A stretch of DNA of 64,000 nucleotides from NCBI GenBank assembly GCA_964016885.1, contig OZ024746.1, positions 90,396,001 through 90,460,000 of the forward strand, in the 5' to 3' direction. Within the stretch, counting starts at the first letter, position 1, and each line of letters begins with the position of its first letter. The notes under the pieces are model-generated. The model saw only the letters and a list, made by a program, of their open reading frames with translations, was not told where the DNA came from and searched no databases. This DNA comes from Eledone cirrhosa. Its lineage: Eukaryota. Positions 10,087-50,165 of this stretch are shown here, piece by piece. Position numbers and translations under genes: made by a program.

Positions 10087-10335
10087 TTTTGGGGAGGGTC
10101 ATTTTGTTATAATATTGCGAGAAATATATAGTAAAACACACTCACTGTTTGGTTCGAGTTGGTTTTCATTTCAGTATATTTTATATTTCTATAATTAATT
10201 CAGCTGGTAATCAATGTTTATCATTGATTTACCAACAGTTCAAAATATAGATATAAATATAGTTTCTCAGAATTCTTTCGTTGCACACCTGTGACATCAT
10301 CAGTGATGTTATTATGTTTCCTCCCGTTGTTTGAA
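10087..10335 (-). mobile_element. Solo Penelope-like pseudo-LTR fragment
   Basis: Similar in reverse complement to 49905-50160 and 19410-19620; contains the hammerhead motif at 10265-10308. Confidence 0.75.
10265..10308 (-). ncRNA. Minimal type I hammerhead motif (family A, degenerate stem II)
   Basis: CATCA-CTGATGA-T-GTCACA-GGTG-TGCAAC-GAAA-GAAT-TC-TGAGA; two mismatches in stem II. Confidence 0.6.
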
Positions 10336-10908
10336 TATTTAATACATCTTTGGAAGTTGATATTTTTCTACCTTTGATTGGTTTTAACCAATTCATTATC
10401 ATATTTCTAATAAAAGACCACTGTCTATGTTAGTGAAATAATTTGGAAATTAATTAAGAATTTGGAAACATTTATAATAATAATAATAATGATAATGAAA
10501 ATTATTGTGTACAGTGCTCAGGTGCACTACAACTCTTCAAAGGTGCATGTATAGTACATAGAATAATATACAAATGTCAGGAAAGTGAGCAGTGTATGAT
10601 CATGATATACTCACAGATGCACATACATGCATGTGTATGGAGGGGGAATATCAGGTGTAAAGTTGGCAATTTTCAGGAAGCATGGAAGTTTTGCAGGATG
10701 CAGTGTAATAATGTAACTAACTTTATTATTATCAAATTGGTATTTGCAATATAACTTAACAAAGTTTCTTATATAAAATTAGGATGCAAGGTTTTTAGAT
10801 AAATATAAACCCATTAAAATAAACAGTTTTGTATCATAGAACCAGAGGCAATTTCAGACAGTTTAGTAACAAAAGGGTTAAAGAAATATTTGCCACACTT
10901 TTACTTTA

Positions 10909-11188
10909 TGAGGGTCATCTGAAAGGTTCATAGGCTGACTATGAAGGAGAGATACTAGAGCTGTGAAATCTTGCATGCATTAATTTCAACTCTTCTTATT
11001 AATAACTGCATTGTTTCTTTCCAGAGACCATGCTAAAAGATAAACCTCATTTGGTCATTTCATGAGAGTATCTTGGTCAGCCTATGAAGGAGTGATGCTA
11101 GAGCTGTGAGGGACTCTGTTGAAAAATAAACCTCATTTGGTCATTCCATGAGTGTATCTTGGTCAGCCAACTTTACATCCGACCCTCA
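10909..11188. mobile_element. mariner-like MITE with TA target-site duplication
   Basis: TA|TGAGGGTCATCTGAAAGGTTCATAGGCTGAC ... GTCAGCCAACTTTACATCCGACCCTCA|TA; internal partial duplication. Confidence 0.7.
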
Positions 11189-11569
11189 TAAATAGAACTG
11201 ACCATGTATAATATTAAGTACAATTTCCATGTTAGATGTCTGTCAGGGTGGATTTACACATAATAAACTGTCATATGTCAACTGAATCAAAATATTGATC
11301 CAATAGCTGGCATAACTTTAGTTTATTGACACCATAGTCTGCCTAATTTTGTCTCCTCAACTTTCTTAATAATTCTTATTTTTCCATGATCCCCCCCCCC
11401 TTCCCCCAGAAATACAATTTTCAAAATAACACTACATTATTAACCCCGAACCCCATTTATTATAGCTCCACCTGCTTATAAGAATTTAAGCAAATGACTA
11501 AACACCCCCCCCCCCTCACCTATTATTTGGGACCCGAGAGTACTTGTTGAAATAAATACCAGGGTTGTA

Positions 11570-11758
11570 ATAATTGTTTCTACTTTTGGCACAAGGCCAG
11601 CAATTACCCCAGTACATTACTGGTACTTTATTTTATCGACCCTGTAAGGATGAAAGGTAAAGTTAACCTCGGCGGGATTTGAACTCAGATCATAAAGGGA
11701 CGTAACTCTATGCTTCAAAGTATGGTGTCCGACTCTCTACCGATACTGCCAATCCACC
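11570..11758 (-). mobile_element. SINE family A copy
   Basis: Near-identical to 443-626. Confidence 0.9.
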
Positions 11759-12578
11759 TATTTGCTCGCAATAGTGAGAAATGGGGGGGGGGGGCAAGAG
11801 AGATAGAGACGATGACAAGTGGTAGTTCGAGGTTATGAACAGAACACGTGATATAATAGAGAACTGTCATGCAGAAGTATGACGAAGTATGTTTTTTATA
11901 TTTTGAACCAAGTTATCACAATTTTTTTTAATGACTTTAGACCTATATATAAAGTACACACACATATTCCAATTCGTTATTCCGGTTTGGGATCGGGTGC
12001 CGTGCTAGATGCCTCAGACTTGATGTTTTCCTCTCATTATTCAAACCAAATATTTCTCATTCAAAGGGAAATAATTTTGATTTTTTGGGGTGGGTTTTCA
12101 CTCCGTAACACACTAAACAAGAGTTGTTTCCCCTTGTGTGAAAACTACTCTCCGGTCTGTGAAAACTACTCTCGACTCACACACACTTATTAATGTTTCA
12201 GATTTTTCACCCCAACTTAATAAATTTTGCTTGTCTAATTTATCTTTGTCGAAATTTTAGTTCAAGTGGTAGCATTCCTGCAACAATTAATTTTATTCAG
12301 ATATTAAATACATGACAAAGTACATTACTAGAAATCCCATATGTTATAAAATAAATAGGGTGTTGTTTAGTATGTAAACTAAACAACTAATTCGGTTTTT
12401 TTTAAATAATCAAGGGAGACTACCTAGAAAAATTACTGATTTTCCATGACCCACTTATTCGAACTCACTTGTTTGCAAATAATCCCAAAGTGAAAATTCT
12501 TTCCATTCAGTGAATTGTGGTAAAATCCAGAACTAAAATTGAAATGAAAAAAAGTCAAACAAAAGCACAAACAAATAA

Positions 12579-13295
12579 TAATTGTTTCTACTTTTATCAC
12601 AAGGCCAGCAAATTACCCAGTACATTACTGGTACTTTATTTTATCGACCCCGTAAGGATGAAAAGCAAAGTTAACCTCGGCGGGATTTGAACTCAGACCA
12701 TAAAGGGCCGTAACTCTATGCTGCAAAGCATAGCGTCCGACCCTCTACCAATACTGCCAATCCACCACTCTATATATAATAATAATAGTTTCTTATATAG
12801 GCACAAGGCCAGCAATTACCCAAGTGTATTACTGGTACTTTATTCTATATAATAATAATAATTTCTTATATAGGCACAAGGCCAGCAATTACCCAAGTGT
12901 ATTACTGGTACTTTATTCTATATAATAATAATGATTTCTTATATAGGCACAAGGCCAGCAATTACCAAAGTGTATTACTGGTACTTTATTCTATATAATA
13001 ATAATGATTTCTTATATAGGCACAAGGCCAGCAATTACCCAAGTGTATTACTGGTACTGTATTCTATATAATAATGATGATGATTTCTTATATAGGCACA
13101 AGGCCAACAATTTTGGGGGATGGGGAAAGTCGATTAAATTGACCCCAGTGCATGACTGGTACTTTATTTTATTGACCCAGTAAGGATGAAAGGCAAAGTT
13201 AACCTCACCTGGATTTGAACCCAGAACACAAAGGGCCAAAACTGTTTGCCACGAAGCAATGTGTCTGACACGCTACCGATACTACCAATCCACCG
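12579..13295 (-). mobile_element. SINE family A cluster: full copy, about four tandem ~68-bp copies of the SINE 3' part, and another full copy
   Basis: Full copy at 12579-12766; TTTCTTATATAGGCACAAGGCCAGCAATTACCCAAGTGTATTACTGGTAC repeated across 12788-13060; full copy at 13083-13295. Confidence 0.85.
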
Positions 13296-13304
13296 TCTTA
13301 ATAA

Positions 13305-15800: not shown

Positions 15801-16089
15801 AATAATAATAATGATTTCTTTATTTACCATAAGGGTTAACATCAAGAAAAACATTATGATGGCACAGGACAGAAACATAGTGTATGTATATGTGTGTGTG
15901 CCATCATCATCATCATCATCATCATTTTACATTTGCTTTTCCCTGTTTGCAAGGGTGGGACGGGAACTGATTCTGGCTTGATTCTACATGCCCTTCCTAA
16001 CACCAACCTCATTTACAGTGTGGGCTGGGTGCTTTTTTGCTGTGGCACCTCCACGACCACTTTGCAATGGAATGATATGGACCCCAGTC

Positions 16090-16240
16090 CCTATCATCTC
16101 ATTTCTACAGCTGAGTAAACTGGAGCAATGTGAAATAAAGTGTCTTGCTCAAGGAAACAACACATCACCTGGTCTGAGAATTGAACTCACAACCTTTCGA
16201 TTTCAAGGCCAATGCTCTAACCACTAAGCCATGTGCCTCC
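16090..16240 (-). mobile_element. tRNA-derived SINE (family B)
   Basis: GGAGGCACATGGCTTAGTGGTTAGAGC...GAGTTCAATTCTC...CCTTGAGCAAGACACTTTATTTCAC; related copies at 58145-58420 and 59061-59230. Confidence 0.75.
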
Positions 16241-16274
16241 TGTGTGTGCGTGTATATGTATATGTGTGTGTGTA

Positions 16275-17365: not shown

Positions 17366-17424
17366 TTATATATATATATATTTATTTAAATATATATATA
17401 TACATATATACATATATATATATA

Positions 17425-18135
17425 TTGTTATACTTTGGGAGGGTCATGTTGCCAATAAGAAACACACGCACCAGTTGCTTTCACTTCAATTTATTATATA
17501 TTTATAAATTTATAAATTTATAAATTTCTGTTTGGTTGGCTGGTTCCACAACCAGATAGTTGTTTATATATAGTCATAGTTCTTTCGTCACACACTCTGT
17601 GACCTCTTCAGTGACTGGGGATTCCTTTCTTTGTTTCTGTGCCTCTCCTTTGTTCTGTCCTACGCCATTTTGTCTCTGTGTGTGTGTTGTGTGCTCAGTC
17701 TGCGCATGCGCCACATCCGGGTGTCTGTGTGTGTTTATGTTCATTTATTTATTTGTTTATTTACATGTTACTGGTTGGTTGTTTGTTCTATGTGTGTGTG
17801 TGTTTTCATTTTGACCTTAATTGTAAGTTGTGATGTTGCTGTTCCACTCATATTTCCTATTTAATTTTGGTTGTAATTCTTTTATGTTTATTGCCTCTGT
17901 AATTTGTCTAAACATTGCGTCTTTTCTGTGTGTAGATTCTATTTTTATTTCTATGTTCTCTAATTTACCCTTGTGTTCTATCTTAGCATGTTGGTAGAGT
18001 ACAGATGATTCTTTATTATCTTGAAGGTCTCGCCAGTGTTCATTTATCCAAAGTATAACAATATCCAAAGTATAACAATATCAGTTTCAACACACGATTT
18101 CAGATAAAGAATCTTGCTAAACAAATTCAGAAACG
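17425..18135 (-). mobile_element. Penelope-like element: GIY-YIG C-terminus, sense 3' pseudo-LTR with hammerhead, short inverted pLTR piece at the 5' junction
   Basis: ORF 17817-18068 reads EHW..SVLYQHAKIEH..RQITEAINIKELQPKLNRKYEW. The pLTR end CCAAAGTATAACAATAT occurs at 17425 (minus) and inverted at 18049-18082 (plus). Confidence 0.85.
17572..17616 (-). ncRNA. Minimal type I hammerhead motif (family A, best-preserved copy)
   Basis: AGTCA-CTGAAGA-G-GTCACA-GAGTG-TGTGAC-GAAA-GAAC-TA-TGACT: 5-bp stem I, 6-bp stem II, 2-bp stem III, CUA cleavage site. Confidence 0.8.
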
Positions 18136-18704
18136 ACATATATATATATATATATGTATATGTTTTGCAAGGTTTTTCATATGAAATCTTGTGTCGAAAC
18201 TGGTGTGGAGCAGGGAGACTGGTATGCATGGGTGTGTGTGTGTATACATATACATATATATGTATATATGTATATATATGTATATATATATATGTATAGG
18301 AAAATGTTTAACTCTGACGGCAGTGGTCAAGGTGTTTCGACGGCTATTTCTGGACTAAATTAGAATTTTTAGTGTGGTAATAAATAGTCGAACTTGTCAA
18401 GGGGTAATTCCTTATATGGGAAGATTATAGTTGTCAAAAGGATTGGTCAAAATTTCTTGTAAACACAATTAGATCTTTTATGGCAGTGGGTGGGTGTGGG
18501 GTGGCTGAACTTGCCTGTAGAACAATGAGGGAGTGGGTGTAGCCGGTCAAGCGTTGAAAGTGAATTCTATACAGCAAATTCTAAGGAGTGTGTGTGAAAT
18601 TAAGCTAGTTAGGAATGCTTCCTAACTAGCCTAAAGCATACTGAGAATAGGACGTTATAGATATGGTTAATAAATTGAGATTAAAAGATAATAAATAAAA
18701 AAAA

Positions 18705-19679
18705 AATGCGCATGCGTTTGCGCGTGTGTATAGTGTTTTGTTTGATGTGTGTTCGTGATTGGGTGGCTGTGTATTGGTTAATGTATTCTATCTTTACTAG
18801 TGTGTGTTTATATGTGTTTGTTGTTATTGTGCTTGTGTATGTATTTATTTATTTATTTATCTATTTATTTATTTATTTATTTATACTTCTCTTAGGTCAG
18901 TGTTGTTTGTTTGGGTGTTGTTGTTATTCCATTCATTCCTTCTGTTTAGTCTTGGCCTTCTAAGTTCTATTTCACTGGCCTCTCTGATTTGCCTATCTGC
19001 TGGGTCATTTCTATGTTTAGATATTATTCTAATTTCTATGTTGTCTATGTTACCGTCGTGTTGTTGTCTGGCATGTTCGTATAGTACTGACCCGTTTTTT
19101 CGTCCTTTTAGTTCCCCCCAGTGTTGGTCTATCATTTCACCTATGCTACGAGCTGTCTCGCCTATGTATGTTGTTGTCATGTTTCTGCAAGTACCCTCTG
19201 TACATCTTATGCTATAGACTACGTTTCTAGTTTTACAGTTTATCCGGGGGTTTACCATACATATGATACATTTCCTATTAGTACAGTGGGTTTTCAAACA
19301 AAACACTATACACACACGCAAACGCATGCGCAAAGAAGACAAAATAAAATAAACAAACAAATAAATAAATATATAAACAGACTAAATAAAGATGGCGTAG
19401 AAAATACAATGTAACGGGAGGAAACAATAGCACCACTGACGAAGTTGCAGATGTGCAACGAAAGATTTATGATAAACTATATATATGTGTTTGTGTCTAT
19501 ATTGTATCTGTATTATTTTTTACCGTTGGTCAGTCAATGGCAACATTGAGGACCGAATAAATTAGATTACCGATATAAAAGATACAGAAGCGAAAAGCGA
19601 AAACCAACCAAACAGTGAGTGAGTTCAGAAATACCCGTCGAAACGGCTTGAGCTCTGCCGTCGGGGTCCTGAACCTTTT

Positions 19680-19680
<1 letters not shown>
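18705..19680 (-). mobile_element. Penelope-like element: GIY-YIG endonuclease with inverted pseudo-LTR
   Basis: ORF 18881-19360 reads CIIC..NCKTRNVVYSIRC..TYIGET..HW..YEH..REASEI..PRLN. 18706-18744 is the inverted repeat of 19293-19331, and the plus-strand pLTR continues to ~19680. Confidence 0.9.
19431..19474 (+). ncRNA. Minimal type I hammerhead motif (family A)
   Basis: CACCA-CTGACGA-A-GTTGCA-GATG-TGCAAC-GAAA-GATT-TA-TGATA; stem I imperfect. Confidence 0.65.
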
Positions 19681-19729
<49 letters not shown>

Positions 19730-19824
19730 TATAAGCAAAGGGATATTTAATTTGTTGGTAATTCAACAAATATATATATTTATAACCGATTCGAAGCACT
19801 CGACAGTTTCCATTTATATATCAT

Positions 19825-19895
<71 letters not shown>

Positions 19896-20384: not shown

Positions 20385-20417
<33 letters not shown>

Positions 20418-22593: not shown

Positions 22594-23440
22594 AAATACT
22601 TACAGAACGAAAGCACAAACAAATATAATATAAAGGAAAGTGAGAGGGAAAACAGAAAAAAAAAGAATGTAAAAGAAAGAGAAAAGATTTTAAAAAAACA
22701 AAAACATATCGCGAGGAGCACAGGGAAACCTTTCTAGTGATTTTTTAGGCAAGCCAGCACGTTGGCAACGTTACCTCGGGTCATGGCGAGGCTGTTTACT
22801 TTCAAACAACTGCTTTTAGATAATGGAAAATATAATAAAATAAAGAAATAAAAAAAAAAATTATGTCGTCAAAACAAATATAAATTTATAAATTTATATT
22901 TGTAATATTTCATTAAATAAATGGAGATAAAATTTGAAAGATAGAAAATTGTTTCTTACCAGCAAAGTTGATTTCTGTTTAGGTAACACCCAAAGCTTTA
23001 CAAAAATAGCTTCAAATATTTATCTAAAAAAAAAAGAAGCAACACACCTTCGTTTAAGTTTACACAATTACGTGGGTGTGTCTAAGATTGTCAATGAAGT
23101 TTGGTGTTAAAATTATGTGTAACACTTTACAGAATATATGATGTAAAGAATTGTCGATTCGTAACGAATAATAAACTTAAAATATGTCAACGAAAAAAAT
23201 AATAATGAGTAAAATAGGTATAATAATGATAGGTTTAGACTTGCTATTCCTGTTGACAACGTTTATTGTCCATTGTTCACGTTGGTTTCAATACTACTAT
23301 CTCACATTCTCTACACTTGACCCAATCTATTTTATTTCTTATGCAAATATATTCTGATTTGACTTTAGATAGGTCGTCTTGTAAGTTATAAACTATTGTA
23401 AATAAACCTATTTGTTAGTTAATAAATAGCACTAGGTATA

Positions 23441-26400
23441 TACTATGTCTTGTATCTATTACTATGTCTTGTATCTATAACTGTCTTCTATCTATAACTC
23501 TGTCTTCTATCTATAACTATGTCTTCTATCTATAACTATGTCTTCTATCTATAACTATGTCTTGTATCTATAACTGTCTTCTATCTATAACTATGTCTTC
23601 TATCTATAACTATGTCTTCTATCTATAACTCTGTTTCTATCTATTACTATGTCTTCTATCTATAACTATGTCTTCTATCTATAACTATGTCTTGTATCTA
23701 TAACTATGTCTTCTATCTATAACTATGTCTTGTATCTATAACTCTGTCTTCTATCTATAACTATGTCTTCTATCTATAACTATGTCTTCTATCTATAACT
23801 CTGTCATCTATCTATAACTATGTCTTCTATCTATAACTCTGTCTTCTATCTATAACTATGTCTTCTATCTATAACTCTGTCTTCTATCTATAGCTATGTC
23901 TTCTATCTATAACTATGTCTTCTATCTATAACTCTGTCTTCTATCTATAACTATGTCTTCTATCTATAACTTTGTCTTCTATCTATAACTATGTCTTCTA
24001 TCTATAACTCTGTCTTTTATCTATAACTCTGTCTTCTATCTATAACTGTCTTCTATCTATAACTCTGTCTTGTATCTATAACTATGTCTTCTATCTATAA
24101 CTATGTCTTCTATCTATAACTATGTCTTCTATCTATAACTTTGTCTTTTATCTATTACTATGTCTTCTATCTATAACTATGTCTTCTATCTATAACTATG
24201 TCTTCTATCTATAACTATGTCTTCTATCTATAACTATGTCTTCTATCTATAACTATGTCTTGTATCTATAACTATGTCTTCTATCTATAACTCTGTCTTC
24301 TATCTATAACTATGTCTTCTATCTATAACTCTGTCTTCTATCTATAACTATGTCTTCTATCTATAACTATGTCTTCTATCTATAACTCTGTCTTGTATCT
24401 ATAACTATGTCTTCTATCTATAACTATGTCTTCTATCTATAACTCTGTCTTCTATCTATAACTATGTCTTCTATCTATATCTATGTCTTCTATCTATAAC
24501 TATGTCTTCTATCTATAACTCTGTCTTCTATCTATAACTATGTCTTCTATCTATAACTATGTCTTCTATCTATAACTATGTCTTCTATCTATAACTATGT
24601 CTTGTATCTATAACTATGTCTTCTATGTATAACTATGTCTTCTATCTATAACTCTGTCTTCTATCTATAACTATGTCTTCTATCTATAACTCTGTCTTCT
24701 ATCTATAACTATGTCTTCTATCTATAACTATGTCTTCTATCTATAACTATGTCTTGTATCTATAACTCTGTCTTCTATCTATAACTATGTCTTCTATCTA
24801 TAACTCTGTCTTCTATCTATAACTCTGTCTTCTATCTATAACTATGTCTTCTATCTATAATTCTGTCTTCTATCTATAACTATGTCTTCTATCTATAACT
24901 ATGTCTTCTATCTATAACTATGTCTTGTATCTATAACTCTGTCTTCTATCTATAACTCTGTCATATATCTATAACTATGTCTTGTATCTATAACTATGTC
25001 TTCTATCTATAACTATGTCTTCTATCTATAACTGTCTTCTATCTATAACTATGTCTTCTATCTATAACTATGTCTTGTATCTATAACTATGTCTTCTATC
25101 TATAACTATGTCTTCTATCTATAACTATGTCTTGTATCTATAACTATGTCTTCTATCTATAACTATGTCTTCTATCTATAACTATGCCTTGTATCTATAA
25201 CTATGTCTTCTATCTATAACTGTCTACTATCTATAACTATGTCTTCTATCTATAACTCTGTCTTGTATCTATAACTCTGTCTTCTATCTATAACTCTGTC
25301 TTGTATCTATAACTCTGTCTTCTATCTATAACTATGTCTTCTATCTATAACTGTCTTCTATCTATAACTATGTCTTCTATCTATAACTCTGTCTTGTATC
25401 TATAACTATGTCTTCTATCTATAACTATGTCTTCTATCTATAACTGTCTTCTATCTATAACTATGTCTTCTATCTATAACTATGTCTTGTATCTATAACT
25501 CTGTCTTCTATCTATAACTATGTCTTCTATCTATAACTATGTCTTCTATCTATAACTATGTCTTGTATCTATAACTATGTCTTCTATCTATAACTATGTC
25601 TTATATCTATAACTATGTCTTGTATCTATAACTCTGTCTTCTATCTATAACTATGTCTTATATCTATAACTATGTCTTGTATCTATAACTCTGTCTTCTA
25701 TCTATAACTATGTCTTCTATCTATAACTATGTCTTGTATCTATAACTCTGTCTTCTATCTATAACTATGTCTTCTATCTATAACTCTGTCTTCTATCTAT
25801 AACTCTGTCTTCTATCTATAACACTGTCTTCTATCTATAACTCTGTCTTCTATCTATAACTCTGTCTTCTATCTATAACTCTGTCTTCTATCTATAACTC
25901 TGTCTTCTATCTATAACTCTGTCTTCTATCTATAACTCTGTCTTCTATCTATAACTATGTCTTCTATCTATAACTATGTCTTCTATCTATAACTATGTCT
26001 TCTATCTATAACTATGTCTTGTATCTATAACTCTGTCTTCTATCTATAACTCTGTCTTCTATCTATAACTCTGTCTTCTATCTATAACTATGTCTTCTAT
26101 CTATAACTATGTCTTCTATCTATAACTATGTCTTCTATCTATAACTATGTCTTCTATCTATAACTCTGTCTTCTATCTATAACTCTGTCTTCTATCTATA
26201 ACTCTGTGTTCTATCTATAACTATGTCTTCTATCTATAACTATGTCTTCTATCTATAACTATGTCTTCTATCTATAACTCTGTCTTTTATCTATAACTCT
26301 GTCTTCTATCTATAACTGTCTTCTATCTATAACTCTGTCTTGTATCTATAACTATGTCTTCTATCTATAACTATGTCTTCTATCTATAACTATGTCTTCT

Positions 26401-32400: not shown

Positions 32401-35400
32401 GTCTTCTATCTATAACTATGTCTTCTATCTATAACTCTGTCTTCGATCTATAACTATGTCTTCTATTTATAACTATGTCTTCTATCTATAACTCTGTCTT
32501 CTATCTATAACTATGTCTTCTATCTATATCTATGTCTTCTATCTATAACTATGTCTTCTATCTATAACTCTGTCTTCTATCTATAACTATGTCTTCTATC
32601 TATAACTATGTCTTCTATCTATAACTATGTCTTCTATCTATAACTTTGTCTTCTATCTATAACTATGTCTTCTATCTATAACTATGTCTTCTATCTATAA
32701 ATATGTCTTCTATCTATAACTATGTCTTGTATCTATAACTATGTCTTCTATCTATAACTCTGTCTTCTATCTATAACTATGTCTTCTATCTATAACTATG
32801 TCTTTTATCTATAACTATGTCTTCTATCTATAACTATGTCTTCTATCTATAACTATGTCTTCTATCTATAACTATGTCTTCTATCTATAACTCTGTCATC
32901 TATCTATAACTATATCTTGTATCTATAACTATGTCTTCTATCTATAACTATGTCTTCTATCTATAACTCTGTCTTCTATCTATAACTATGTCTTCTATCT
33001 ATAACTATGTCTTCTATCTATAACTATGTCTTGTATCTATAACTCTGTCTTCTATCTATAACTCTGTCATCTATCTATAACTATGTCTTGTATCTATAAC
33101 TATGTCTTCTATCTATAACTATGTCTTCTATCTATAACTGTCTTCTATCTATAACTATGTCTTCTATCTATAACTATGTCTTCTATCTATAACTATGTCT
33201 TCTATCTATAACTATGTCTTCTATCTATAACTATGTCTTGTATCTATAACTCTGTCTTCTATCTATAACTATGTCTTCTATCTATAACTCTGTCTTGTAT
33301 CTATAACTCTGTCTTCTATCTATAACTATGTCTTCTATCTATAACTGTCTTCTATCTATAACTATGTCTTCTATCTATAACTCTGTCTTCTATCTATAAC
33401 TATGTCTTCTATCTATAACTATGTCTTCTATCTATAACTGTCTTCTATCTATAACTATGTCTTCTATCTATAACTCTGTCTTGTATCTATAACTCTGTCT
33501 TCTATCTATAACTATGTCTTCTATCTATAACTGTCTTCTATCTATAACTATGTCTTCTATCTATAACTCTGTCTTGTATCTATAACTATGTCTTCTATCT
33601 ATAACTATGTCTTCTATCTATAACTGTCTTCTATCTATAACTATGTCTTCTATCTATAACTATGTCTTGTATCTATAACTCTGTCTTCTATCTATAACTA
33701 TGTCTTCTATCTATAACTATGTCTTGTATCTATAACTATGTCTTCTATCTATAACTATGTCTTCTATCTATAACTATGTCTTGTATCTATAACTCTGTCT
33801 TCTATCTATAACTATGTCTTCTATCTATAACTATGTATTGTATCTATAACTCTGTCTTCTATCTATAACTATGTCTTCTATCTATAACTATGTCTTCTAT
33901 CTATAACTATGTCTTGTATCTATAACTCTGTCTTCTATCTATAACTCTGTCTTCTATCTATAACTCTGTCTTCTATCTATAACTCTGTCTTCTATCTATA
34001 ACTCTGTCTTCTATCTATAACTCTGTCTTCTATCTATAACTATGTCTTCTATCTATAACTATGTCTTCTATCTATAACTATGTCTTGTATCTATAACTAT
34101 GTCTTCTATCTATAACTATGTCTTCTATCTATAACTATGTCTTCTATCTATAACTATGTCTTGTATCTATAACTCTGTCTTCTATCTATAACTCTGTCTT
34201 CTATCTATAACTCTGTCTTCTATCTATAACTCTGTCTTCTATCTATAACTCTGTCTTCTATCTATAACTATGTCTTCTATCTATAACTATGTCTTGTATC
34301 TATAACTATGTCTTCTATCTATAACTATGTCTTCTATCTATAACTATGTCTTCTATCTATAACTATGTCTTCTATCTATAACTATGTCTTCTATCTATAA
34401 CTATGTCTTGTATCTATAACTCTGTCTTCTATCTATAACTCTGTCTTCTATCTATAACTCTGTCTTCTATCTATAACTATGTCTTCTATCTATAACTATG
34501 TCTTCTATCTATAACTATGTCTTCTATCTATAACTATGTCTTCTATCTATAACTCTGTCTTCTATCTATAACTCTGTCTTCTATCTATAACTCTGTCTTG
34601 TATCTATAACTATGTCTTGTATCTATAACTCTGTCTTCTATCTATAACTATGTCTTGTATCTATAACTCTGTCTTCTATGTATAACTATGTCTTGTATAT
34701 ATAACTATGTCTTGTATCTATAACTATGTCTTCTATCTATAACTATGTCTTGTATGTATAACTATGTCTTCTATCTATAACTATGTCTTCTATCTATAAC
34801 TCTGTCTTGTATCTATAACTATGTCTTCTATCTATAACTCTGTCTTCTATCTATAACTGTCTTCTATCTATAACTCTGTCTTGTATCTATAACTCTGTCT
34901 TCTATCTATAACTATGTCTTCTATCTATAACTCTGTCTTCTATCTATAACTATGTCTTCTATCTATAACTATGTCTTGTATCTATAACTATGTCTTCTAT
35001 CTATAACTCTGTCTTCTATCTATAACTATGTCTTCTATCTATAACTATGTCTTCTATCTATAACTCTGTCTTGTATCTATAACTATGTCTTCTATCTATA
35101 ACTGTCTTCTATCTATAACTATGTCTTCTATCTATAACTATGTCTTCTATCTATAACACTGTCTTCTATCTATAACTATGTCTTCTATCTATAACTATGT
35201 CTTGTATCTATAACTATGTCTTCTATCTATTACTATGTCTTCTATCTATAACTCTGTCTTGTATCTATAACTATGTCTTCTATCTATAACTCTGTCTTCT
35301 ATCTATAACTGTCTTCTATCTATAACTCTGTCTTGTATCTATAACTCTGTCTTCTATCTATAACTATGTCTTCTATCTATAACTCTGTCTTCTATCTATA

Positions 35401-36898
35401 ACTATGTCTTCTATCTATAACTATGTCTTGTATCTATAACTATGTCTTCTATCTATAACTCTGTCTTCTATCTATAACTATGTCTTCTATCTATAACTAT
35501 GTCTTCTATCTATAACTCTGTCTTGTATCTATAACTATGTCTTCTATCTATAACTGTCTTCTATCTATAACTATGTCTTCTATCTATAACTATGTCTTCT
35601 ATCTATAACACTGTCTTCTATCTATAACTATGTCTTCTATCTATAACTATGTCTTGTATCTATAACTATGTCTTCTATCTATTACTATGTCTTCTATCTA
35701 TAACTATGTCTTCTATCTATAACTATGTCTTCTATCTATAACTGTCTTCTATCTATAACTCTGTCTTCTATCTATAACTATGTCTTCTATTTATAACTCT
35801 GTCTTCTACATATAACTATGTCTTCTATCTATAACTATGTCTTGTATCTATAACTATGTCTTCTATCTATAACTATGTCTTGTATGTATAACTATGTCTT
35901 CTATCTATAACTATGTCTTCTATCTATAACTATGTCTTGTATCTATAACTATGTCTTCTATCTATAACTCTGTCTTCTATCTATAACTATGTCTTCTATC
36001 TATAACTATGTCTTCTATCTATAACTCTGTCTTGTATCTATAACTATGTCTTCTATCTATAACTGTCTTCTATCTATAACTATGTCTTCTATCTATAACT
36101 ATGTCTTCTATCTATAACACTGTCTTCTATCTATAACTATGTCTTCTATCTATAACTATGTCTTGTATCTATAACTATGTCTTCTATCTATAACTATGTC
36201 TTCTATCTATAACACTGTCTTCTATCTATAACTATGTCTTCTATCTATAACTATGTCTTGTATCTATAACTATGTCTTCTATCTATTACTATGTCTTCTA
36301 TCTATAACTCTGTCTTGTATCTATAACTATGTCTTCTATCTATAACTCTGTCTTCTATCTATAACTGTCTTCTATCTATAACTCTGTCTTGTATCTATAA
36401 CTCTGTCTTCTATCTATAACTATGTCTTCTATCTATAACTCTGTCTTCTATCTATAACTATGTCTTCTATCTATAACTATGTCTTGTATCTATAACTATG
36501 TCTTCTATCTATAACTCTGTCTTCTATCTATAACTATGTCTTCTATCTATAACTATGTCTTCTATCTATAACTCTGTCTTGTATCTATAACTATGTCTTC
36601 TATCTATAACTGTCTTCTATCTATAACTATGTCTTCTATCTATAACTATGTCTTCTATCTATAACACTGTCTTCTATCTATAACTATGTCTTCTATCTAT
36701 AACTATGTCTTGTATCTATAACTATGTCTTCTATCTATTACTATGTCTTCTATCTATAACTATGTCTTCTATCTATAACTATGTCTTCTATCTATAACTG
36801 TCTTCTATCTATAACTCTGTCTTCTATCTATAACTATGTCTTCTATTTATAACTCTGTCTTCTACATATAACTATGTCTTCTGTCTATAACTATGTCT
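23441..36898. repeat. 13.4-kb tandem satellite, 19-bp unit CTATCTATAACTATGTCTT (~700 units)
   Basis: Uninterrupted array. Common variants are CTCTGT/CTATGT, TTGTA/TTCTA and 17-bp deletion units. Confidence 0.99.
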
Positions 36899-37523: not shown

Positions 37524-38700
37524 ATGAACTTGTGTTTTCAAATCTAAATCTATCCCACCGATCCACTACTGGCTCAATTTCTAGCAAAACTCTTCTCTCT
37601 GATCAAGAACATTAAATTCAAAAGACACCTTAATTCATCAGAGGACTGAAGAACATGAATGACCTCCTTGTACACTCGGATATAAAAGAACAACCTGTAC
37701 CTCATTGATCATGAATGTTACTATTGTTTCATCTACAGCCTCACTTCTAATTACATAAAGACCAACCACTCAACCATCAAAGCAATCAATAAAATGGTCC
37801 AACAGATTACCTCTGACCTCCAAATGAAAGATCGCACTGAACCCCTTAGCTCACAGGAATCGTACTTCACAGTTTGGAGGGGGCTTGTACCCTGACAATG
37901 GCCTACTTACCCTCAACAATTTCAGTCGTCACACAATCAACTGAACCAGAAAAGGTCTGGACATCTTCACCGTCCAGAAATTCTGCATTACCTTCCAGCT
38001 CCACATGAGTTCTGTGGACTTCCTCGAAGTTACACTGAACCTCGAAACCAGACTATACTACCCATATGGGAAGCCCAACAAAACCCTAAAATATATAAAC
38101 AGGAACTCCAGCCGTGTCCATTCCATAACCAATAATCTGACTAAAAACATTTCCATTAGTATCTCCTGGCTCTCTGTGACCAAGCAGGTCTTCCATGAGC
38201 ATGCACCCTATTACACCAATGCCAACACAGCAGATTTAAAAAAGGACATAATTCATCAGATTCCACCAGCAGAACAGGAAATGTAGGGTTATGTGTTACA
38301 ACCCACCCCAAAAATGCGGAAGTGGCACAGCCCTTGCTCAGATCTTATTCAGTATGATCCAGAGACTCTTCCCACCATAGCGCCGGTACCACAGGACTTT
38401 CAATAAAAACACTGTAAAGCTATCCTACCCAACAACACCAAATATAGCACAAAATATCGCTACATATGACAGGACCAAACTCAGCAGACACAGTTCCTAT
38501 GATTCAACCAACCCAACCATAGAACACTACTACAATTGCTGTCACCAGGAGGAGTGCTCTCTGGACTCCAAATGCCTAACTACCAATTTAGTATACAAAT
38601 GCAAGGTCACCACCAGCGTGCAGAGAAAAGCATATATATGTATGATGGTTAACATCTTTTCAATATACCGGGCAACCTAAGTCAGAACCAACATGCCCTG
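37524..38700 (+). mobile_element. Decayed Penelope-like element, second lineage (RT thumb plus GIY-YIG N-terminus)
   Basis: VDFLEVTLNLETRLYYPYGKPN...HAPYY; downstream FNKNTVKLSY..PNI and NCCHQEECSLDSKCLTTNLVYKCKVTT..AYI. Confidence 0.8.
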
Positions 38701-43090: not shown

Positions 43091-43132
43091 CACACATACA
43101 CATACACACATATATTTATATATATATATATA

Positions 43133-43939
43133 CGAGGTGGGTCAGAAAAGTTCCAGGACTGATGTCACAAAAGATTTATTCCAAACACAAATTTCACACT
43201 AAGAGTTTTCTCCTTCAAAGTTATCCCCTTGGAGTCTAATGCACTTTTCCATCCTTTTCTGTCATGCTTGCATGCACTCCTTTAAGGATTCTTCCGGGAT
43301 CCTCCGCAGTTCCGTCGTCACAGCCTTTTTGATGTCGTTCACGTCTTCAAAACGGGTCCCCTCCGGGTCGTACTCGAAGATCCATGACTCATCACCGGTG
43401 ATGACTGTCCCTAGAAAATCTGGTTCGGTTTCAAGACGCTTGAGGATGTCCTGGCATACTTGCATGCGTCGACCCTTCTGGTCATCGTTCAGCAGTTTTG
43501 GCACCATCTTCACGCAGACTTTACGCGTGTCCAAATCTTCAGTGAGAATTTTCCAGACGCTGTCCCGATTCATGCCCACCTCATTTGCCATCAGTCGAAC
43601 AGTCAGCTGACAATCGCTACGCACCATCTGCCTGACGCGCTCAACGTTGATCTCAGTCTTGGTTGTTGAGGGCCTTCCGCTCCTGGGGTCATCTTCCACG
43701 CCCTGGTGTCCTTCTTTAAACCTCTTGCACCACTCAAAAACATGTGAGCGTGACATCGTAAGTACAAGTAAGTAAGTATATAAAATTATGAAGAAAAAAC
43801 TTTGATCGCTGCAGAGAGCTAAGATTACAGTTACATACTCCAGGGGGATTACTTTGAAGGAGAAAACTCTTAGTGTGAAGTTTGGGTTTGAAATAAATAT
43901 TTTGTGACGTCAGTCCTCGAACTTTTCTGATATACCTCG
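43133..43939 (-). mobile_element. Internally deleted mariner element with ~103-bp TIRs and TA target-site duplication
   Basis: TA|CGAGG...CCTCG|TA; TIRs at 43133-43235 and 43837-43939. ORF 43262-43756 has the HTH, VPKLL and TGDESW, then jumps directly to the C-terminus. Confidence 0.92.
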
Positions 43940-44142
43940 TATATATATATATTACCCACTCTACTACCCTAAGTGTTGAGTACTTTGGTGCGTTATGGTC
44001 CACCTGCTTCCTTACCACACTTTCTTTGTTTTATATATATACATATATATCATCATCATCATCATCGTCATTTCATTTTACGTCCGCTTTTCCCTGCTTG
44101 CAATAGATACATATATATACACACACATATATATATATATAT

Positions 44143-44380
44143 ATTTCGTTTCTGAATTTGTTTAGCAAGATTCTTTATCTGAAGACGTGTGTTGAAACCG
44201 ATATTGTTGTACTTTGGGAGGGCCATGTTGTCAATAAGAAACACACGCACCAGTTGCTTTATAAATTTAAGAATTTATAAATTTCCGGTTGGTTGGTTGG
44301 TTCCATAACCGGACGGTTGTTCATATATTGTCAAAGTTCTTTCGTCACACATTCTGTGACCTCTTCAGTGACTGTAGTTT
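44143..44380 (-). mobile_element. Solo Penelope-like pseudo-LTR in a (TA)n tract
   Basis: Similar to 17425-17620 and 18065-18135. Confidence 0.8.
44330..44372 (-). ncRNA. Minimal type I hammerhead motif (family A)
   Basis: GTCA-CTGAAGA-G-GTCACA-GAATG-TGTGAC-GAAA-GAAC-TT-TGAC. Confidence 0.78.
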
Positions 44381-44383
44381 CTT

Positions 44384-44431
<48 letters not shown>

Positions 44432-44454
44432 ATACATATATATATAAATATACG

Positions 44455-44488
<34 letters not shown>

Positions 44489-44544
44489 TATATAAATATA
44501 TATATATATATCCAGGGAGTGTAACTTGGAGTTACTGTATATAC

Positions 44545-44613
<69 letters not shown>

Positions 44614-45230
44614 CATATATACATATATATATACATATATATATACACATATATATATACATATATATATAAATACATATATATATGGTGGCTGCCAACT
44701 CGTTTTTGAGTACGGCCACTACTTTATATCCATGTAGGAGAACCCCTACCGATGCGCTGAACGAGTGTGACTTTTTAGTCCAGCCAGCAACTTGAAATCT
44801 CTGGTACAAACACTACACTTGTGACAATTATTGACACATAGTGCTGGGCCCATGGTACCATGTGACGACAAGTGCAGAGAGATCTCCAGATATAAAGCAA
44901 TGCCTGTGCCGTGAAGCTTTTATAGTGAGCAAAGGCACTGCACAAAGCCAGTCCCACTCTCTTAACCAAGAAGATATTTACCAAAAAGAAGAATCAACAT
45001 CATTGGATACCATCAGGGTTGCAGGTGTTATATCAGAGTTTTCCTTCTCCTAGAATTCTGCCTTGACAAAGGCTAAGGGGTCATCTCTCATATATATACA
45101 TACATACATACACACACACATTAGTATATTTTGACTGGCAATTTTCTTTAATACATGTACAATTACAAAAGATGAATCTATGTCTTGATAACAAGTTTAA
45201 TGTTAAGTCTCAAGTCTATATACTTAGTTC

Positions 45231-45236
45231 TTTATT
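45231..45236 (-). terminator. PolyA signal of the VWA gene
   Basis: AATAAA on the minus strand, ~75 nt after the stop codon. Confidence 0.55.
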
Positions 45237-45308
45237 TCCAATGCTGGTTAAAGTAAGTTAGATTCTCTTATAGATGATTGATTCGGGACAGGTGAACCAA
45301 GTTGAGAG

Positions 45309-45883
45309 TTATTTTGTCTTTAGACAAACCAATTTATTTAAAATGGAAGAAAACTTTCTCAGTGAATCAAAAGTTGGAGTGAATAATACATTTTGAGGAG
45401 ATGATGCCATGTTATGTAGCTCAGTCATATCAACAGAATTACTAACTCCTATGGAGAATACATTAATCTTCATTTCGTGTAGCTTTGCTGCAGCAACTCT
45501 AGTTGTGTAAGGGTTGCTTGATACATTATCTGTGATGACGATCAGTATTGACTTAGCATTTTTTCGTGCCCCAAATGCCACAGTAAAACCTTTCTTTCGA
45601 ACAGCATCTAAAACTAAATTAGTGTTTGTTTGACCTTTGACCAGCTTTAAACTCAGTAGTGCATGATTAAAGGCAAACTTCTCATTATCTATTCCTAGTG
45701 GAAGCTCTAATCTTGGGCAATCAGAGAAAGTATACACACCCACTTGGGTTCCAGTTTCACCAAATATAGCTGTTTGAAGAACAAATTCAGATACAACATT
45801 GAGCATTTGTTGAAATTCTGACTCAGTAATGCTTCTAGAAGTGTCCAAAGCAAAGATGACATCTGTTGGAATTACAGTGCAAG
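45309..45883 (-). CDS. Secreted two-VWA-domain protein, exon 3 (VWA 2, terminal)
   Basis: Acceptor TTTTTAG, phase 1. Reads CTVIPTDVIFALDTSRS (MIDAS DxSxS), GQTNT, LIVITD, VFSIGV; TAA stop at 45311-45309. Confidence 0.92.
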
Positions 45884-47939
45884 CTAAAAAGGAAATAATT
45901 TGAATTATTGTAAGTATAAAGAAGAAAAGAAGAAAAATATAAATATTTCATTCTGTGATGTTATTCCACTGTTTTGTAACACATAAAACAGGCTGAAGTT
46001 TATAACTGCTGTCTACACCACCCTTACACTTTCAAGAAAACATATCCAGTCCACATTGTAAAGTGGTCATGTGTAGGTGTCACGACAAAACACACAGTCC
46101 ACATTGTAAAGTGGTTGTGTAGGTGACACGATAAAAAGCACCCAGCCTCCACTGTAAAGTGGTTATGTATGTGTCATGACAAAACACCCAGCCCACACCT
46201 GTTCATCACAGAGAGTAACGGCACAAGAGATTGGCTGAAACTTGGCCAATGAGAATCTAACTAACAACACCTTAGATAAAAGATTTCTAAACTTTTTCTA
46301 TTGGCAACATACTTTTAAAAAGTACAATTTTTTGTTTTATTAACAACATAAAAATGATAAATTAAACCTCATACCATGTTCTACTAACCAAGTGTCGAAT
46401 TTTATGCTGAGTTTATCAGATCTTAAATATACTTTAGGTGGCAAATTGGCAGAGTCATTAAGATATCGGATAGAATTCTTTATGGTATTCATCCCACCTC
46501 ATTGTGCCGTGGTCAACTTTGCCTTTCATCCTTTCAAGGTTGATAAATGAAGCACCAGTCCAGTACTGGGGTCGATTCTTCCTCTATAGAAAAAATTGGT
46601 TGTGTTCAGACCTGGACAGGGTTGGGCTCTGCTAGATTTAAAACTGCCCTAGACACACCATATGACAGTGCCTCTACAACTCCACAAATATTTGTTACAA
46701 TTTATTAGATTTGACTTAATTGTACCATACACTAGAGATTCTTAATGACACACTAAAGTTTTAGGACAGTTTAGAAAGATCTGCCTTTAGCACTGACCTT
46801 TGGTCAAAGACTAGGAAATTGTCATGGTTTGCTCCTTTCTGAACCCTCTTTGGGGTCTCGGGATATGTGGTCACTGTGCATCCATCTCACGCCTCCCAGG
46901 ACAGTTTGCAGGCCCATTGCCAGTTTTTGCGGCATGAAATGAAGAATGTAATATATTTTTCAAACAGGCCCCTCTACCTAAGGCTTCAATGCATCCCTTG
47001 TTAACCTGCACACAGGACAATGCAGTAAGATTTTTTTTATACCTCTCACCATATTGCAGTCTTGGTGGCCATATTCATGCCAGTCACCAATCTGTTATTT
47101 TCTCAAACCTGCAAAGACTAGGATGTTTTAGAAGCAACCTTTACTCAACTCATCATTAACTACATCACTGGGTTGTAAGAGTTTTCTTGGGAGCTACAGA
47201 TACCACCTATTGCTCCATCTCCCTTAATAGTTTACCGTTGTTGGTCTGAGGTTACTTATTCATCTGGCAGTTGCCTGCTTATATTGCAACTAACCATCAT
47301 ATCTGGTCGCCGTATTGCTACCAGATGCTAGCATAACAACAACAATAACAACAGCCACAACAAAGATGAGATGGTCATGGTTAGAACCAGTGCCGGATTA
47401 GCCTAGTAGCAAAAGTAGCATTTGCTATGGGCCCTGTATTTTCAGGAGTTCCATACTGTGTGCTTCATAATATAGTATTTTACTATATTGCCTTTAACCT
47501 GTAATACAGGGTCAAAAAGATCATAAAGTAAAAAATGGGCTTGGTATCCAAAACTCCCGCTGAGATTAGCTTTGTGTTTCATTCTTCTGAAATCAATAAA
47601 GTAGTAGTCTATAATAGTGGACAGGGGATGTTAGAACATTTGATAGAATGCCTTGCAGTATTTGTTTGGGGGACTTTGTGTTCTGAGTTCAAATCTCACT
47701 GAGCTCAAATCTCATCTGACCTTTAGATAATTTTAACAGAGTTCATTCTGTTACAAGCGACCGTTCTTTGGTTTGTGCACATCATCCTCCCTCAGTCTTT
47801 GAGGCCCTCGGAAAGGCTCATGGTTACTGCCATCTCTTCTGATTAAGTGTTAAAAACACAAATCAATAATTATGAGATTGAATTAATATCTCTTCAAAAC
47901 TAGATAAAATTTTATAAAATTGTGCAAATTTGACGTTAA

Positions 47940-48073
47940 ATGATGATGATGGTGATGGTGGTGGTGCTGGTGGTAGTGGTGGTGGTAGTGGTGGTGGTGG
48001 TGATGATGGTGGTGGTGGTGGTGGTAGTGGTGGTGATGGTAGTGCTGCTGCTGATGATAACGACAATGATGAT
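47940..48073. repeat. (GGT/GAT)n microsatellite
   Basis: Direct reading of the sequence; intronic. Confidence 0.95.
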
Positions 48074-48094
48074 TTTACAAATGTTCACACTTAC

Positions 48095-48658
48095 TTGAAC
48101 AGGTGATTTCTCTTAATCGTTGTTGAATGTTATTAAAGGCATCAAACTTCTCTGAGACAAAGATATTTTTGGCTGAGGATGCAATATCTAAAAATAGTTT
48201 TGGATCTACATTTTTACCAATACCAATAGTAAAAATGTTTACATTATTCTGCATAAGTTCATTAGCTGCTGCTTTAGTTCTCAGCAAATCTGCAGCATGT
48301 CCATCAGATATTAAAATAACTACTTTATGAACTAGAGCCCTGGAACCGCGAGCTGGACTGAATCCATTCTTCTTAACTTCTTCCAAAGCTAAGTGAGTAT
48401 TAGAAATTCCATGTAAACGTTGTATTTGTGTAATTGCAGTTACTATGTCAATTTGGTTCTCATATGTACCAAGATCGAAATTAGCTTTGGTATGTGAAGC
48501 AAAAATCTGTATTCCTATTTGTTTTCCTTGCCTTCCGATGTTTCTCGTGCCTAGGACGAAGTTAGTTACAAATACTAGTTCGTTTCGAAAGTCCTCGTTT
48601 GAGATATTGTCAGAGGAATCTACTACAAAAATAATGTCTACTTTGCTATCTGTACAAT
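48095..48658 (-). CDS. Secreted two-VWA-domain protein, exon 2 (VWA 1)
   Basis: Acceptor TTTTACAG and donor A|GTAAGT; 564 nt, phase 1-1, open frame. Reads CTDSKVDIIFVVDSSDNIS...SNTHLAL...VVILISDG...IFTIGIG...REITCS. Confidence 0.92.
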
Positions 48659-48735
48659 CTGTAAAATAAAATAAAAAAAATGAAGACAGAAAATGGAATC
48701 AAACTTTGTTGCTGCCAGTTCTCTTTACTTTTTAA

Positions 48736-48944
48736 CCCTTTAGCATTTAAAACAGTCCTATCCGGCCAGAATTCTCTCACCTCTATCTGTTCAAACCAGA
48801 TGCTCTTACTTATGTTAAGGTATTGTTCTCACAATAAATGATATCAAAATCTTGTAGATTCAATATTATGTGAGATAATTATGAGATAAAGCCTTTACCA
48901 CGAAAATACAATAGGTTATATAGAGTCATGTAAATGCGAAAGGG
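48736..48944. mobile_element. piggyBac-type MITE with TTAA target-site duplication
   Basis: TTAA|CCCTTTAGCATTTA ... TAAATGCGAAAGGG|TTAA. Confidence 0.85.
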
Positions 48945-49106
48945 TTAACTTTCTAAATTTCATGAAAAAAGGAGAGGGGGAAGAAAAAGAAAATATATTT
49001 CAAACAAGGCCCCCACCACCTCTTTTTGAGATATTACAACAGCAATATGTTCAGACCTATGCTGAAAGGCATTCTAACTATGACTATCACAACTTTACAA
49101 TGGCGA

Positions 49107-49505
49107 TGGATTGGCAGAGGGTGAGAGATTGGCAGTATCAGTAGAGAGTCAGACACCATGCTTTGCAGCATAGAGTTACGCCCTTTTATGATCTGAGTTC
49201 AAATCCCACTGAGGTTAACTTTGCCTTTCATCCTTACGGGGTCGATAAAATAAAGTACCAGTAATGCACTGGGTAATTGTTGGCCTTGTGCCAAAAGTAG
49301 AAACAATTATTATTATGGATTGAGAGTATCGGTAGAGGGTCGGACGCCATGCTTTGCATCAAAGAGTTACGGTCCTTTATGATCTGAGTTCAAATCCCTC
49401 CGAGGTTAACTTTGCCTTTCATCTTTACGGGGTCGATAAAATAAAGTACCAGTAATACACTGGGATAATTGCTGGCCTTGTGCCAAAAGTAGAAACAATT
49501 ATTAT
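49107..49505 (+). mobile_element. Two tandem SINE family A copies
   Basis: Copies at 49107-49314 and 49316-49505. Confidence 0.88.
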
Positions 49506-49554
49506 CTCAGATTAGATTACACAATAGATTATTCCCTTTTTCAAGATGGTAGAA

Positions 49555-50165
49555 TTCGATTTGAGCTGTCTCACCTATGTACATTGTTGTCATCTTTCTG
49601 CAAGTACCCTCTGTACATCTTATGCTATAGACTACATTTCTAGTTTTACAGTTTATCTGGGGGTTCATTCTACATATAACACATTTCTTATTTGTACAGT
49701 GTGTTTTCTTATTTGTACAGTGTGTTTTCTTATTTGTACAGTGTGTTTTCTTATTTGTACAGTGTTTTTTCTTATTTGTACAATGTGTTTTCTTGCTGAT
49801 CAGGGATTGTATGGTAGTTCCTGGCTTTTCTACCACTTTAAACTTTAGAGACAGAAATAAATAAATAAATAAATAAAATAAAATAAAAATGGCGTAGGCA
49901 TTATAACACAATGGGAGGAAACATAATAGTACCACTGATGATGTCACAGATATGTGACGAAAGAACTTTGATAGACTATATATATATATATTTATATCTG
50001 TATTTTTAACCATTGGTCAATCAATGATAAACATTGATTGCCAGATAAATTAACTATGGAGATATAAAAAATACAGGAGCAAAAACCAACCAAACAGTGA
50101 GTGTGTTCTGTTGTTATTTCTCGCAATATTATAACAATATGACCCTCCCCAAGTATAACAATATA
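49555..50165 (-). mobile_element. Penelope-like GIY-YIG fragment with inverted pseudo-LTR
   Basis: Minus strand 49845-49560 reads KVVEKPGTTIQSLI..CVIC..NCKTRNVVYSIRC..MYIGET. Plus-strand pLTR runs from ~49846 to 50165. Confidence 0.88.
49930..49973 (+). ncRNA. Minimal type I hammerhead motif (family A)
   Basis: TACCA-CTGATGA-T-GTCACA-GATA-TGTGAC-GAAA-GAAC-TT-TGATA. Confidence 0.7.

What the first reader, a model, noticed from the sequence alone, without database searches (positions are those of the whole stretch)
10265..49973. Family of five minimal hammerhead ribozymes in Penelope pseudo-LTRs, with an extra core nucleotide and a non-palindromic 2-bp stem III
Seen: copies at 10265-10308(-), 17572-17616(-), 19431-19474(+), 44330-44372(-) and 49930-49973(+). 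All share stem I-CUGANGA-N-6-bp stem II-GAAA-GA(A/U)(C/U)-UH-stem I. Three sit beside GIY-YIG fragments and two are solo pLTRs. Established: PLEs carry minimal type I hammerheads that are thought to cleave as dimers through a palindromic stem III/loop. Unusual here: a variable nucleotide (G/A/U) between A9 and G10.1, a long stem II, and a stem III (AG-AA-CU) that is not self-complementary. Caveat: the apparent stem II covariation (GTCACA/TGTGAC versus GTTGCA/TGCAAC) may just be CpG decay from GTCGCA/TGCGAC.
Basis: partly seen in the sequence, partly recalled or inferred. Interest (0 to 1): 0.75.

Follow-up and report, generated by a model that had tools for sequence, protein, structure and literature searches.

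The report
Penelope hammerheads with mismatched pairing helix
The five motifs are copies of the small hammerhead-ribozyme motif that Penelope-like jumping genes are known to carry, but in most of this family's roughly 34,000 copies the short helix thought to let two ribozymes pair is not self-complementary, so they likely cut only weakly, in pairs held across a two-purine mismatch.

Summary
All five motifs are real and lie in pLTRs of a Neptune/Nematis-type Penelope-like element (PLE) with about 34,000 hammerhead copies in this genome. The extra nucleotide between 9 and 10.1 and the long stem II are not unusual: Cervera and De la Pena 2014 list both as general features of PLE hammerheads. The non-palindromic helix III is real and family-wide. 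About 81% of copies read AG-AA-CU, AG-GA-CU or AG-AG-CU, 17% read the wobble palindrome AGAUUU, and 0.5% the perfect palindrome. Only 3 of the 5 window copies read AG-AA-CU. Four metagenome relatives (30-52% RT identity) have palindromic helices, so the loss is likely derived. Stem II covariation runs through paired G-U intermediates and is not just CpG decay within copies. The catalytic core is invariant across lineages 66% identical in protein. Most likely a weak, protein-assisted double hammerhead with a 2x2 purine mismatch; cleavage is untested, and a junction test was inconclusive. The scan has noted PLE minimal hammerheads before on other DNA; my look-ups returned no note on this family. 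New variant of a known kind.

The parts
10265..10308 (-). Hammerhead, subfamily C, decayed (two stem II mismatches, helix III AGAAUU); predicted cut after 10270
10088..10312 (-). Solo pLTR holding that hammerhead
   Evidence: 68% to a lineage B unit
17572..17616 (-). Hammerhead, young subfamily A (AG-AA-CU, N17=A), intact, 5-bp helix I; predicted cut after 17577
   Evidence: (1.1% from subfamily majority)
17422..18049 (-). 5'-truncated lineage A element: GIY-YIG tail (17820-18047), 3' UTR and pLTR
   Evidence: 94% over 649 bp to a full unit
18065..18143 (+). Short inverted arm of the same insertion (3' tail region)
   Evidence: 97%
18707..19295 (-). Lineage B arm with Zn-linker and GIY-YIG coding fragment (18884-19294, 95% to residues 1081-1217 of an intact ORF)
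19294..19734 (+). Inverted lineage B arm with pLTR
19431..19474 (+). Hammerhead, subfamily B with AGAUUU (wobble-palindromic helix III); predicted cut after 19469
44330..44372 (-). Hammerhead, subfamily A (AG-AA-CU, N17=U), intact; predicted cut after 44334
44139..44374 (-). Solo pLTR with tail, next to a (TA)n tract, beginning just before helix I
49561..49848 (-). Lineage B Zn-linker/GIY-YIG fragment with local tandem duplication
49871..50185 (+). Inverted arm with pLTR, older B subfamily
49930..49973 (+). Hammerhead, older B subfamily (AG-AA-CU, N17=U), interrupted helix I; predicted cut after 49968

Best explanation
These are minimal type I hammerhead motifs in the pLTRs of a Penelope-like retrotransposon family whose helix III hexamer is mostly not self-complementary, and they likely cut their own RNA only weakly, as a double hammerhead in which the two hexamers would pair through A-U and G-C ends around a 2x2 purine-purine mismatch, likely with help from the element's protein. 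Shown: identity, context, copy numbers, invariant core, compensated helix II, and helix III states by subfamily. Inferred: that palindromy was lost in this lineage (outgroups), that cleavage occurs at all, that it needs a dimer, and that the protein assists. Weak cleavage suits the element, because a cut in the 3' pLTR would part the ORF from the priming end, and nearly all inserted copies that span the site keep the motif whole.
For: Intact 1,217-aa ORF between two hammerheads, in about 4.1-kb tandem units, with RVT_1 (6 of 21 aligned members) and GIY-YIG (3 of 21) hits. Across 10 representatives of lineages 66% identical in protein and 47% different at 183 fourfold sites, the core is invariant, helix II is 100% paired with 2 two-sided changes, and both helix III pairs are kept in 10 of 10, while the flanking pLTR of A versus B/C barely aligns. 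Helix III states: AGAACU 22,156; G-B-N-Y types 4,439 (91 of the first 100 AGGACU); AGAGCU 1,224; AGAUUU 5,809; AGAUCU 168. Every amplified state is a purine-purine tandem or fully paired, and one subfamily regained full self-complementarity by two changes. Turner self-duplex energies: AA +2.4, GA -1.7, AG -0.4, AGAUUU +0.2, near the published minimal AUAU (+1.6). PLE min-HHRs cleave weakly and only as multimers (PMC4209133); the anole PLE hammerhead needs its protein, and uncut RNA is the main template (PMC11167929).
Against: AG-AA-CU, the commonest and probably ancestral state, gives the weakest self-duplex of all 16 loops. Only three loop changes were seen, two of them transitions, so the purine bias is not significant, and keeping both As across A and B is expected by chance about 28% of the time (0.53 squared). 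Helix I has a mean pairing probability of 0.52 or less in all 8 pLTR contexts folded, and about 0 in lineage B. No RNA evidence: only contigs were available and the one RNA run laid gave nothing. Junctions are more frequent near the cut site but show no sharp peak.
Confidence: 0.5

Rival explanations
1. The motif works as a protein-assisted monomer in which helix III is the single A15.1-U16.1 pair capped by a G-R-R-C (or GAUU) tetraloop, so palindromy was lost because dimerisation is no longer needed.
For: Palindromy is lost relative to 4 of 4 outgroup hammerheads, and the loop changes about as often as the free positions N7 and N17. An axolotl hammerhead with a 1-bp helix III and tetraloop cleaves 6% as a monomer (PMC7229834). 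U-turn folds for GNNC loops are recalled, not checked.
Against: 15.2-16.2 stays a standard pair in 10 of 10, with a G-C to G-U change. Closing the 1-bp hairpin costs about 5 kcal/mol in the Turner model. The axolotl motif has loop 1-loop 2 contacts and a palindromic loop, and cleaves much better as a dimer. A strict GANC tetraloop is excluded by the large AGGACU subfamily.
Confidence: 0.2
2. The motif no longer cleaves; the fold is kept as a protein-binding or promoter/packaging signal, and helix III drifts because catalysis is not needed.
For: Weakest possible dimer helix, poor helix I in lineage B, and insertion in vitro does not need hammerhead activity (PMC11167929). Any cut-site excess of junctions is under about 0.5% of lineage A copies.
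Against: All catalytic positions and N17 = H are kept in every subfamily. Junctions at the cut window are about 2.4 times a downstream control and 4 times an upstream control.
Confidence: 0.22
3. The family had a palindromic helix III and CpG-rich stem II, and the window copies only show decay after insertion.
For: Copy 10265 carries the doubly mismatched stem II expected from CpG decay; 27 copies genome-wide keep the CG/CG form.
Against: The perfect palindrome is 168 scattered copies against 22,156 AG-AA-CU; subfamilies 1-4% diverged carry the non-palindromic form as their majority; stem II combinations are not independent.
Confidence: 0.03

Closest known systems
[quoted passage not shown]
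   Same: Type I topology in pLTRs, intact core, extra nucleotide between 9 and 10.1, G10.1-C11.1, 6-bp helix II, short helix I, thousands of solo and inverted copies.
   Different: Helix III hexamer has a 2x2 purine mismatch in the predicted dimer in about 81% of copies. In the 56 motifs of Fig. S3, read from PDF text, none has this; 54 are self-complementary, one has a central U-U (Hydra) and one a C-A (Latimeria 3). Oikopleura has exactly the palindrome AGAUCU. G as the extra base is rare there (1 of 56).
Small-stem-III hammerhead variants of PLEs that cleave as dimers (Lunse, Weinberg and Breaker, RNA Biol 14:1499; not held, seen only as a reference and as summarised in PMC6765202 passages)
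   Same: Diminished stem III, PLE association, dimer model.
   Different: The review describes the stem III loop as palindromic; I could not check whether the paper's alignments include non-palindromic loops.
Protein-assisted hammerhead of Poseidon from Anolis carolinensis (PMC11167929; passages and section 3 part 2 read)
   Same: PLE hammerhead in the pLTR, tail with two 3' ends, uncut RNA as the main template.
   Different: Different clade; there the motif overlaps the start codon, here it lies about 170-220 nt upstream of the first ATG.
Neptune/Nematis EN+ PLEs (PMC8557442; passages read)
   Same: RT followed by CX2-5CXXC linker and C-terminal GIY-YIG with CCHH, (TA)n targets, tandem and inverted structures, tail.
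   Different: Not placed against reference Neptune or Nematis sequences in a tree.
Double hammerheads of ASBVd and newt satellite 2 (PMC6466107, PMC7229834; passages read)
   Same: Unstable 1-2 bp helix III rescued by a double-hammerhead fold.
   Different: Those have canonical helices I and II with loop contacts. That the ASBVd dimer helix holds internal mismatches is recalled, not checked.

Membership tests
Hammerhead ribozyme (type I) | CUGANGA, GAAA and UH core in type I order | tested here: met
   5 of 5 window copies; invariant in 10 of 10 representatives
Hammerhead ribozyme (type I) | Helix II with G10.1-C11.1, supported by covariation | tested here: met
   100% paired, 2 pairs with two-sided change; compensatory path through G-U
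Hammerhead ribozyme (type I) | Helix I | tested here: inconclusive
   Two inner pairs invariant; 78% of cells paired; 4-5 bp in lineage A, interrupted in B/C; low pairing probability in context
Hammerhead ribozyme (type I) | Self-cleavage after N17 | not testable with these tools
   No raw RNA reads; junction test inconclusive
Hammerhead ribozyme (type I) | Loop 1-loop 2 tertiary contact of canonical motifs | not tested
Metazoan PLE min-HHR | Located in PLE pLTRs | tested here: met
   Flanks full 4.1-kb units; window copies map to unit ends
Metazoan PLE min-HHR | Extra nucleotide between 9 and 10.1, long helix II | tested here: met
   All subfamilies
Metazoan PLE min-HHR | Palindromic 15.2-16.2 and loop 3 | tested here: not met
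   About 81% of copies have AA, GA or AG loops; met only in the AGAUUU subfamily (17%, with G-U). Filed as a variant for this reason
Metazoan PLE min-HHR | Activity as dimer, not monomer | not testable with these tools
   Only nearest-neighbour energies
Neptune/Nematis PLE | RT with C-terminal GIY-YIG endonuclease in one ORF | tested here: met
   1,217-aa ORF; RVT_1 E 1e-4 in it, GIY-YIG in 3 of 21 aligned homologues, all below curated cut-offs or weak; VVY...YIGET motif seen directly
Neptune/Nematis PLE | CX2-5CXXC linker and CCHH motif | tested here: met
   C-x4-C-x2-C before the endonuclease and C..C..H..H within it, read from the translation
Neptune/Nematis PLE | Phylogenetic placement among reference clades | not tested

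The most novel reading that the evidence does not exclude
This lineage has escaped the palindrome rule for minimal hammerheads: it keeps a fully conserved catalytic core for about 34,000 insertions with a helix III that cannot self-pair well, because it cleaves as a protein-folded monomer with a one-pair helix III and a G-R-R-C tetraloop. Its four natural loop variants would be a ready-made series for settling whether PLE hammerheads work as dimers.
Probability: 0.2. Interest if true: 0.58.

Novelty: new variant of a known kind. Interest (0 to 1): 0.33.

Why it matters
The palindromic helix III is the main sequence argument that PLE hammerheads act as dimers. A successful family that lost the palindrome while keeping the core, and whose subfamilies carry AA, GA, AG and AU/G-U versions in nearly the same frame, makes that model directly testable and shows that searches requiring a palindrome would miss tens of thousands of motifs. 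The kind itself is known, and two of the three features flagged as unusual are published.

Tried and rejected
Rfam scan: no hammerhead family matched. Complementary partner family (AGUUCU) for heterodimers: none among the first 100 of 4,439 matches; the reversed-pattern control of that search had 5,909 hits, so it is not a clean control. Other families sharing this helix III with a different stem II: 217 matches, the first 100 mostly point mutants of the same family. GANC-tetraloop reading: contradicted by AGGACU. Conserved long-range partner for the hexamer, or a type III rewiring: none shared among 8 pLTR folds. Junction map from held loci: no start at the cut among 120 (A) and 71 (B) alignments, a small sample biased to intact motifs. 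Genome-wide junction windows: cut site 116 raw (about 20 of the first 30 loci real junctions), upstream control 25 raw (18 of 25), downstream control 139 raw (7 of the first 30); extrapolated about 77, 18 and 32. The excess is spread over 3 nt, overlaps a TA microhomology with the target, and the patterns differ in reach, so it is not taken as proof of cleavage. Public runs: contigs only; the RNA run laid gave no cover, which proves nothing. Lunse et al. is not held. Protein atlas had no model. Solved-structure search gave only weak RT matches. Literature searches for a non-palindromic or mismatched helix III in PLE hammerheads, or for octopus PLE hammerheads of this kind, found no description (supplement search); most subscription papers are not searched.
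Full report
Observation. The five motifs are at the stated places. With helices I and II required, the window has 5 against a mean of 0.01 in 200 shuffles; the bare core pattern is not significant by itself, and Rfam has no matching model. Three copies read AG-AA-CU in helix III, 19431 reads AGAUUU and 10265 AGAAUU. Copy 10265 has two mismatches in stem II, and helix I is uninterrupted only in 17572 and 44330.

What carries them. An exact pattern gave 27,597 matches in the 3.0-Gb genome and 0 for the reversed control. Tandem units of about 4.1 kb have a hammerhead at each end, and one holds an intact 1,217-aa frame. It has a weak RVT_1 match, and 3 of 21 aligned homologues match GIY-YIG; the window fragments alone gave no Pfam GIY-YIG hit. 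A C-x4-C-x2-C linker, a C-terminal endonuclease with CCHH, (TA)n targets, inverted 5' arms and two 3' ends fit the Neptune/Nematis description in PMC8557442 (passages). The best protein hit is labelled Octopus vulgaris at 69%, so the host is probably an octopod (inference). In the window, 17572 is in the sense of its endonuclease fragment, 19431 and 49930 are on inverted arms, and 10265 and 44330 are solo.

Two of three unusual features are published. [quoted passage not shown] Here that base is G in lineage A and U in B/C, and G in the four outgroup motifs.

Stem II covariation. In the first 100 of 811 older lineage B copies (tallied by eye) the two variable dinucleotides were TG/CA 52, CA/TG 21, CG/TG 7, TG/CG 6, CG/CG 3, TG/TG 2, CA/CA 0, CA/CG 0, CG/CA 0, other 9. 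Independent CpG decay would give about 15 CA/CA among the 75 fully converted (Fisher p 1e-16; copies share ancestors, so this is not a true probability). The states seen form a path that stays paired through G-U. A CG/CG form survives in 27 copies, so CpG-type transitions may have supplied the changes, but the amplified masters kept pairing. Copy 10265 is CA/CA and is decayed.

Helix III. Genome-wide exact counts: AGAACU 22,156, AGAUUU 5,809, AGAGCU 1,224, AGAUCU 168, and 4,439 with a non-A first loop base, 91 of the first 100 being AGGACU. That is about 33,800 copies, about 81% not self-complementary. I sorted 196 held copies (a sample biased by the search patterns) into nine groups; six have AA, and the others GA (youngest, 1.1% divergence), AG (8.6%) and AGAUUU (3%). 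Lineages A and B are 66% identical over 729 aa and differ at 47% of 183 fourfold sites, yet core, helix II and both helix III pairs hold in 10 of 10 representatives. Of 35 metagenome relatives, 4 showed a hammerhead by the strict descriptor, all palindromic (AUAU, AUCGAU, AUAUAU, ACUAGU); a fifth has a U3-A8 core with AUAUAU and a doubtful helix I. Many of the others end before the pLTR, and three with over 1 kb downstream showed none. In a tree of 13 RT regions the genome's lineages form one clade (support 1.0) next to the AUAU relative. The loss of palindromy is therefore likely derived. None of the 56 published representatives has a 2x2 purine loop (PDF text). I could not read Lunse et al., whose alignments may bear on this.

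Mechanism. In a double hammerhead the hexamer pairs with a second copy of itself. Turner energies are +2.4 for AA (worst of 16 loops), -1.7 GA, -0.4 AG, +0.2 AGAUUU and -5.0 for the unused AGAUCU, against +1.6 for AUAU and -1.7 for ACGU. All amplified states are purine tandems or fully paired, which fits a weak dimer, but three changes are too few to show selection. In 8 pLTR folds only helix II is stable and the hexamer has no shared partner, so the active fold would need help. The anole PLE hammerhead cleaves only with its protein and uncut RNA is the main template (PMC11167929). I put 0.5 on a weak, protein-assisted mismatched dimer, 0.2 on a monomer with one pair and a tetraloop, 0.22 on a non-cleaving signal and 0.03 on decay.

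Test for cleavage scars. At the cut: 116 raw, about 20 of the first 30 real junctions. Upstream: 18 of 25. Downstream: 7 of the first 30 of 139. The extrapolated 77 against 18 and 32 is an excess, but it is spread over three bases, overlaps a TA microhomology and is under about 0.5% of the lineage. It is inconclusive. Public runs gave contigs only.

Verdict. A real PLE minimal hammerhead family that fails one feature of the published consensus, the palindrome. It is a new variant of a known kind, useful as a natural test series for the dimer model. My paper searches found no description of it. Other papers seen as passages only: PMC6765202, PMC6466107, PMC7229834, PMC13282606 and bioRxiv 10.64898/2026.07.22.740005. 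Interest 0.33.

Noticed in passing
window 23437-36898: 13.5-kb satellite of a 19-bp unit, about 712 copies, 94% matches.
   Followed up: no
window 45309-45947 and 48075-48698 (-): Two von Willebrand A domain exons (Pfam E 1e-32 and 1e-31); the 44330 hammerhead lies on the same strand just beyond them and may be intronic in the sense of that gene.
   Followed up: partly
window 9560-10081 (-): Exon with a weak Ig-domain match and a hydrophobic stretch; the 10265 solo pLTR ends about 30 bases before its apparent splice acceptor.
   Followed up: partly
window 6335-7087 (-) and 43262-43909 (-): Tc1/mariner-like transposase fragments (HTH matches); many RTE-like LINE fragments elsewhere (by eye).
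   Followed up: no
window 37945-38680 (+): Two frames that look by eye like a fragment of another Penelope-like element; no Pfam support.
   Followed up: no
L193 (G000:C2:56838500-56848000): Intact 1,217-aa ORF between two hammerheads in a tandem array; copies end at two sites, just after the start codon region and about 60-90 bases further on in lineage A.
   Followed up: partly
L328:2764: Metagenome relative with a U3-A8 variant core and AUAUAU helix III.
   Followed up: no
L355, L362, L372, L374-L377: Several junctions at the predicted cut carry a short TA-rich linker between the inverted arm and the element, and one joins the ORF end directly to the cut site.
   Followed up: partly
genome-wide, control: The reversed control pattern has 5,909 matches, so some other abundant repeat matches it.
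   Followed up: no
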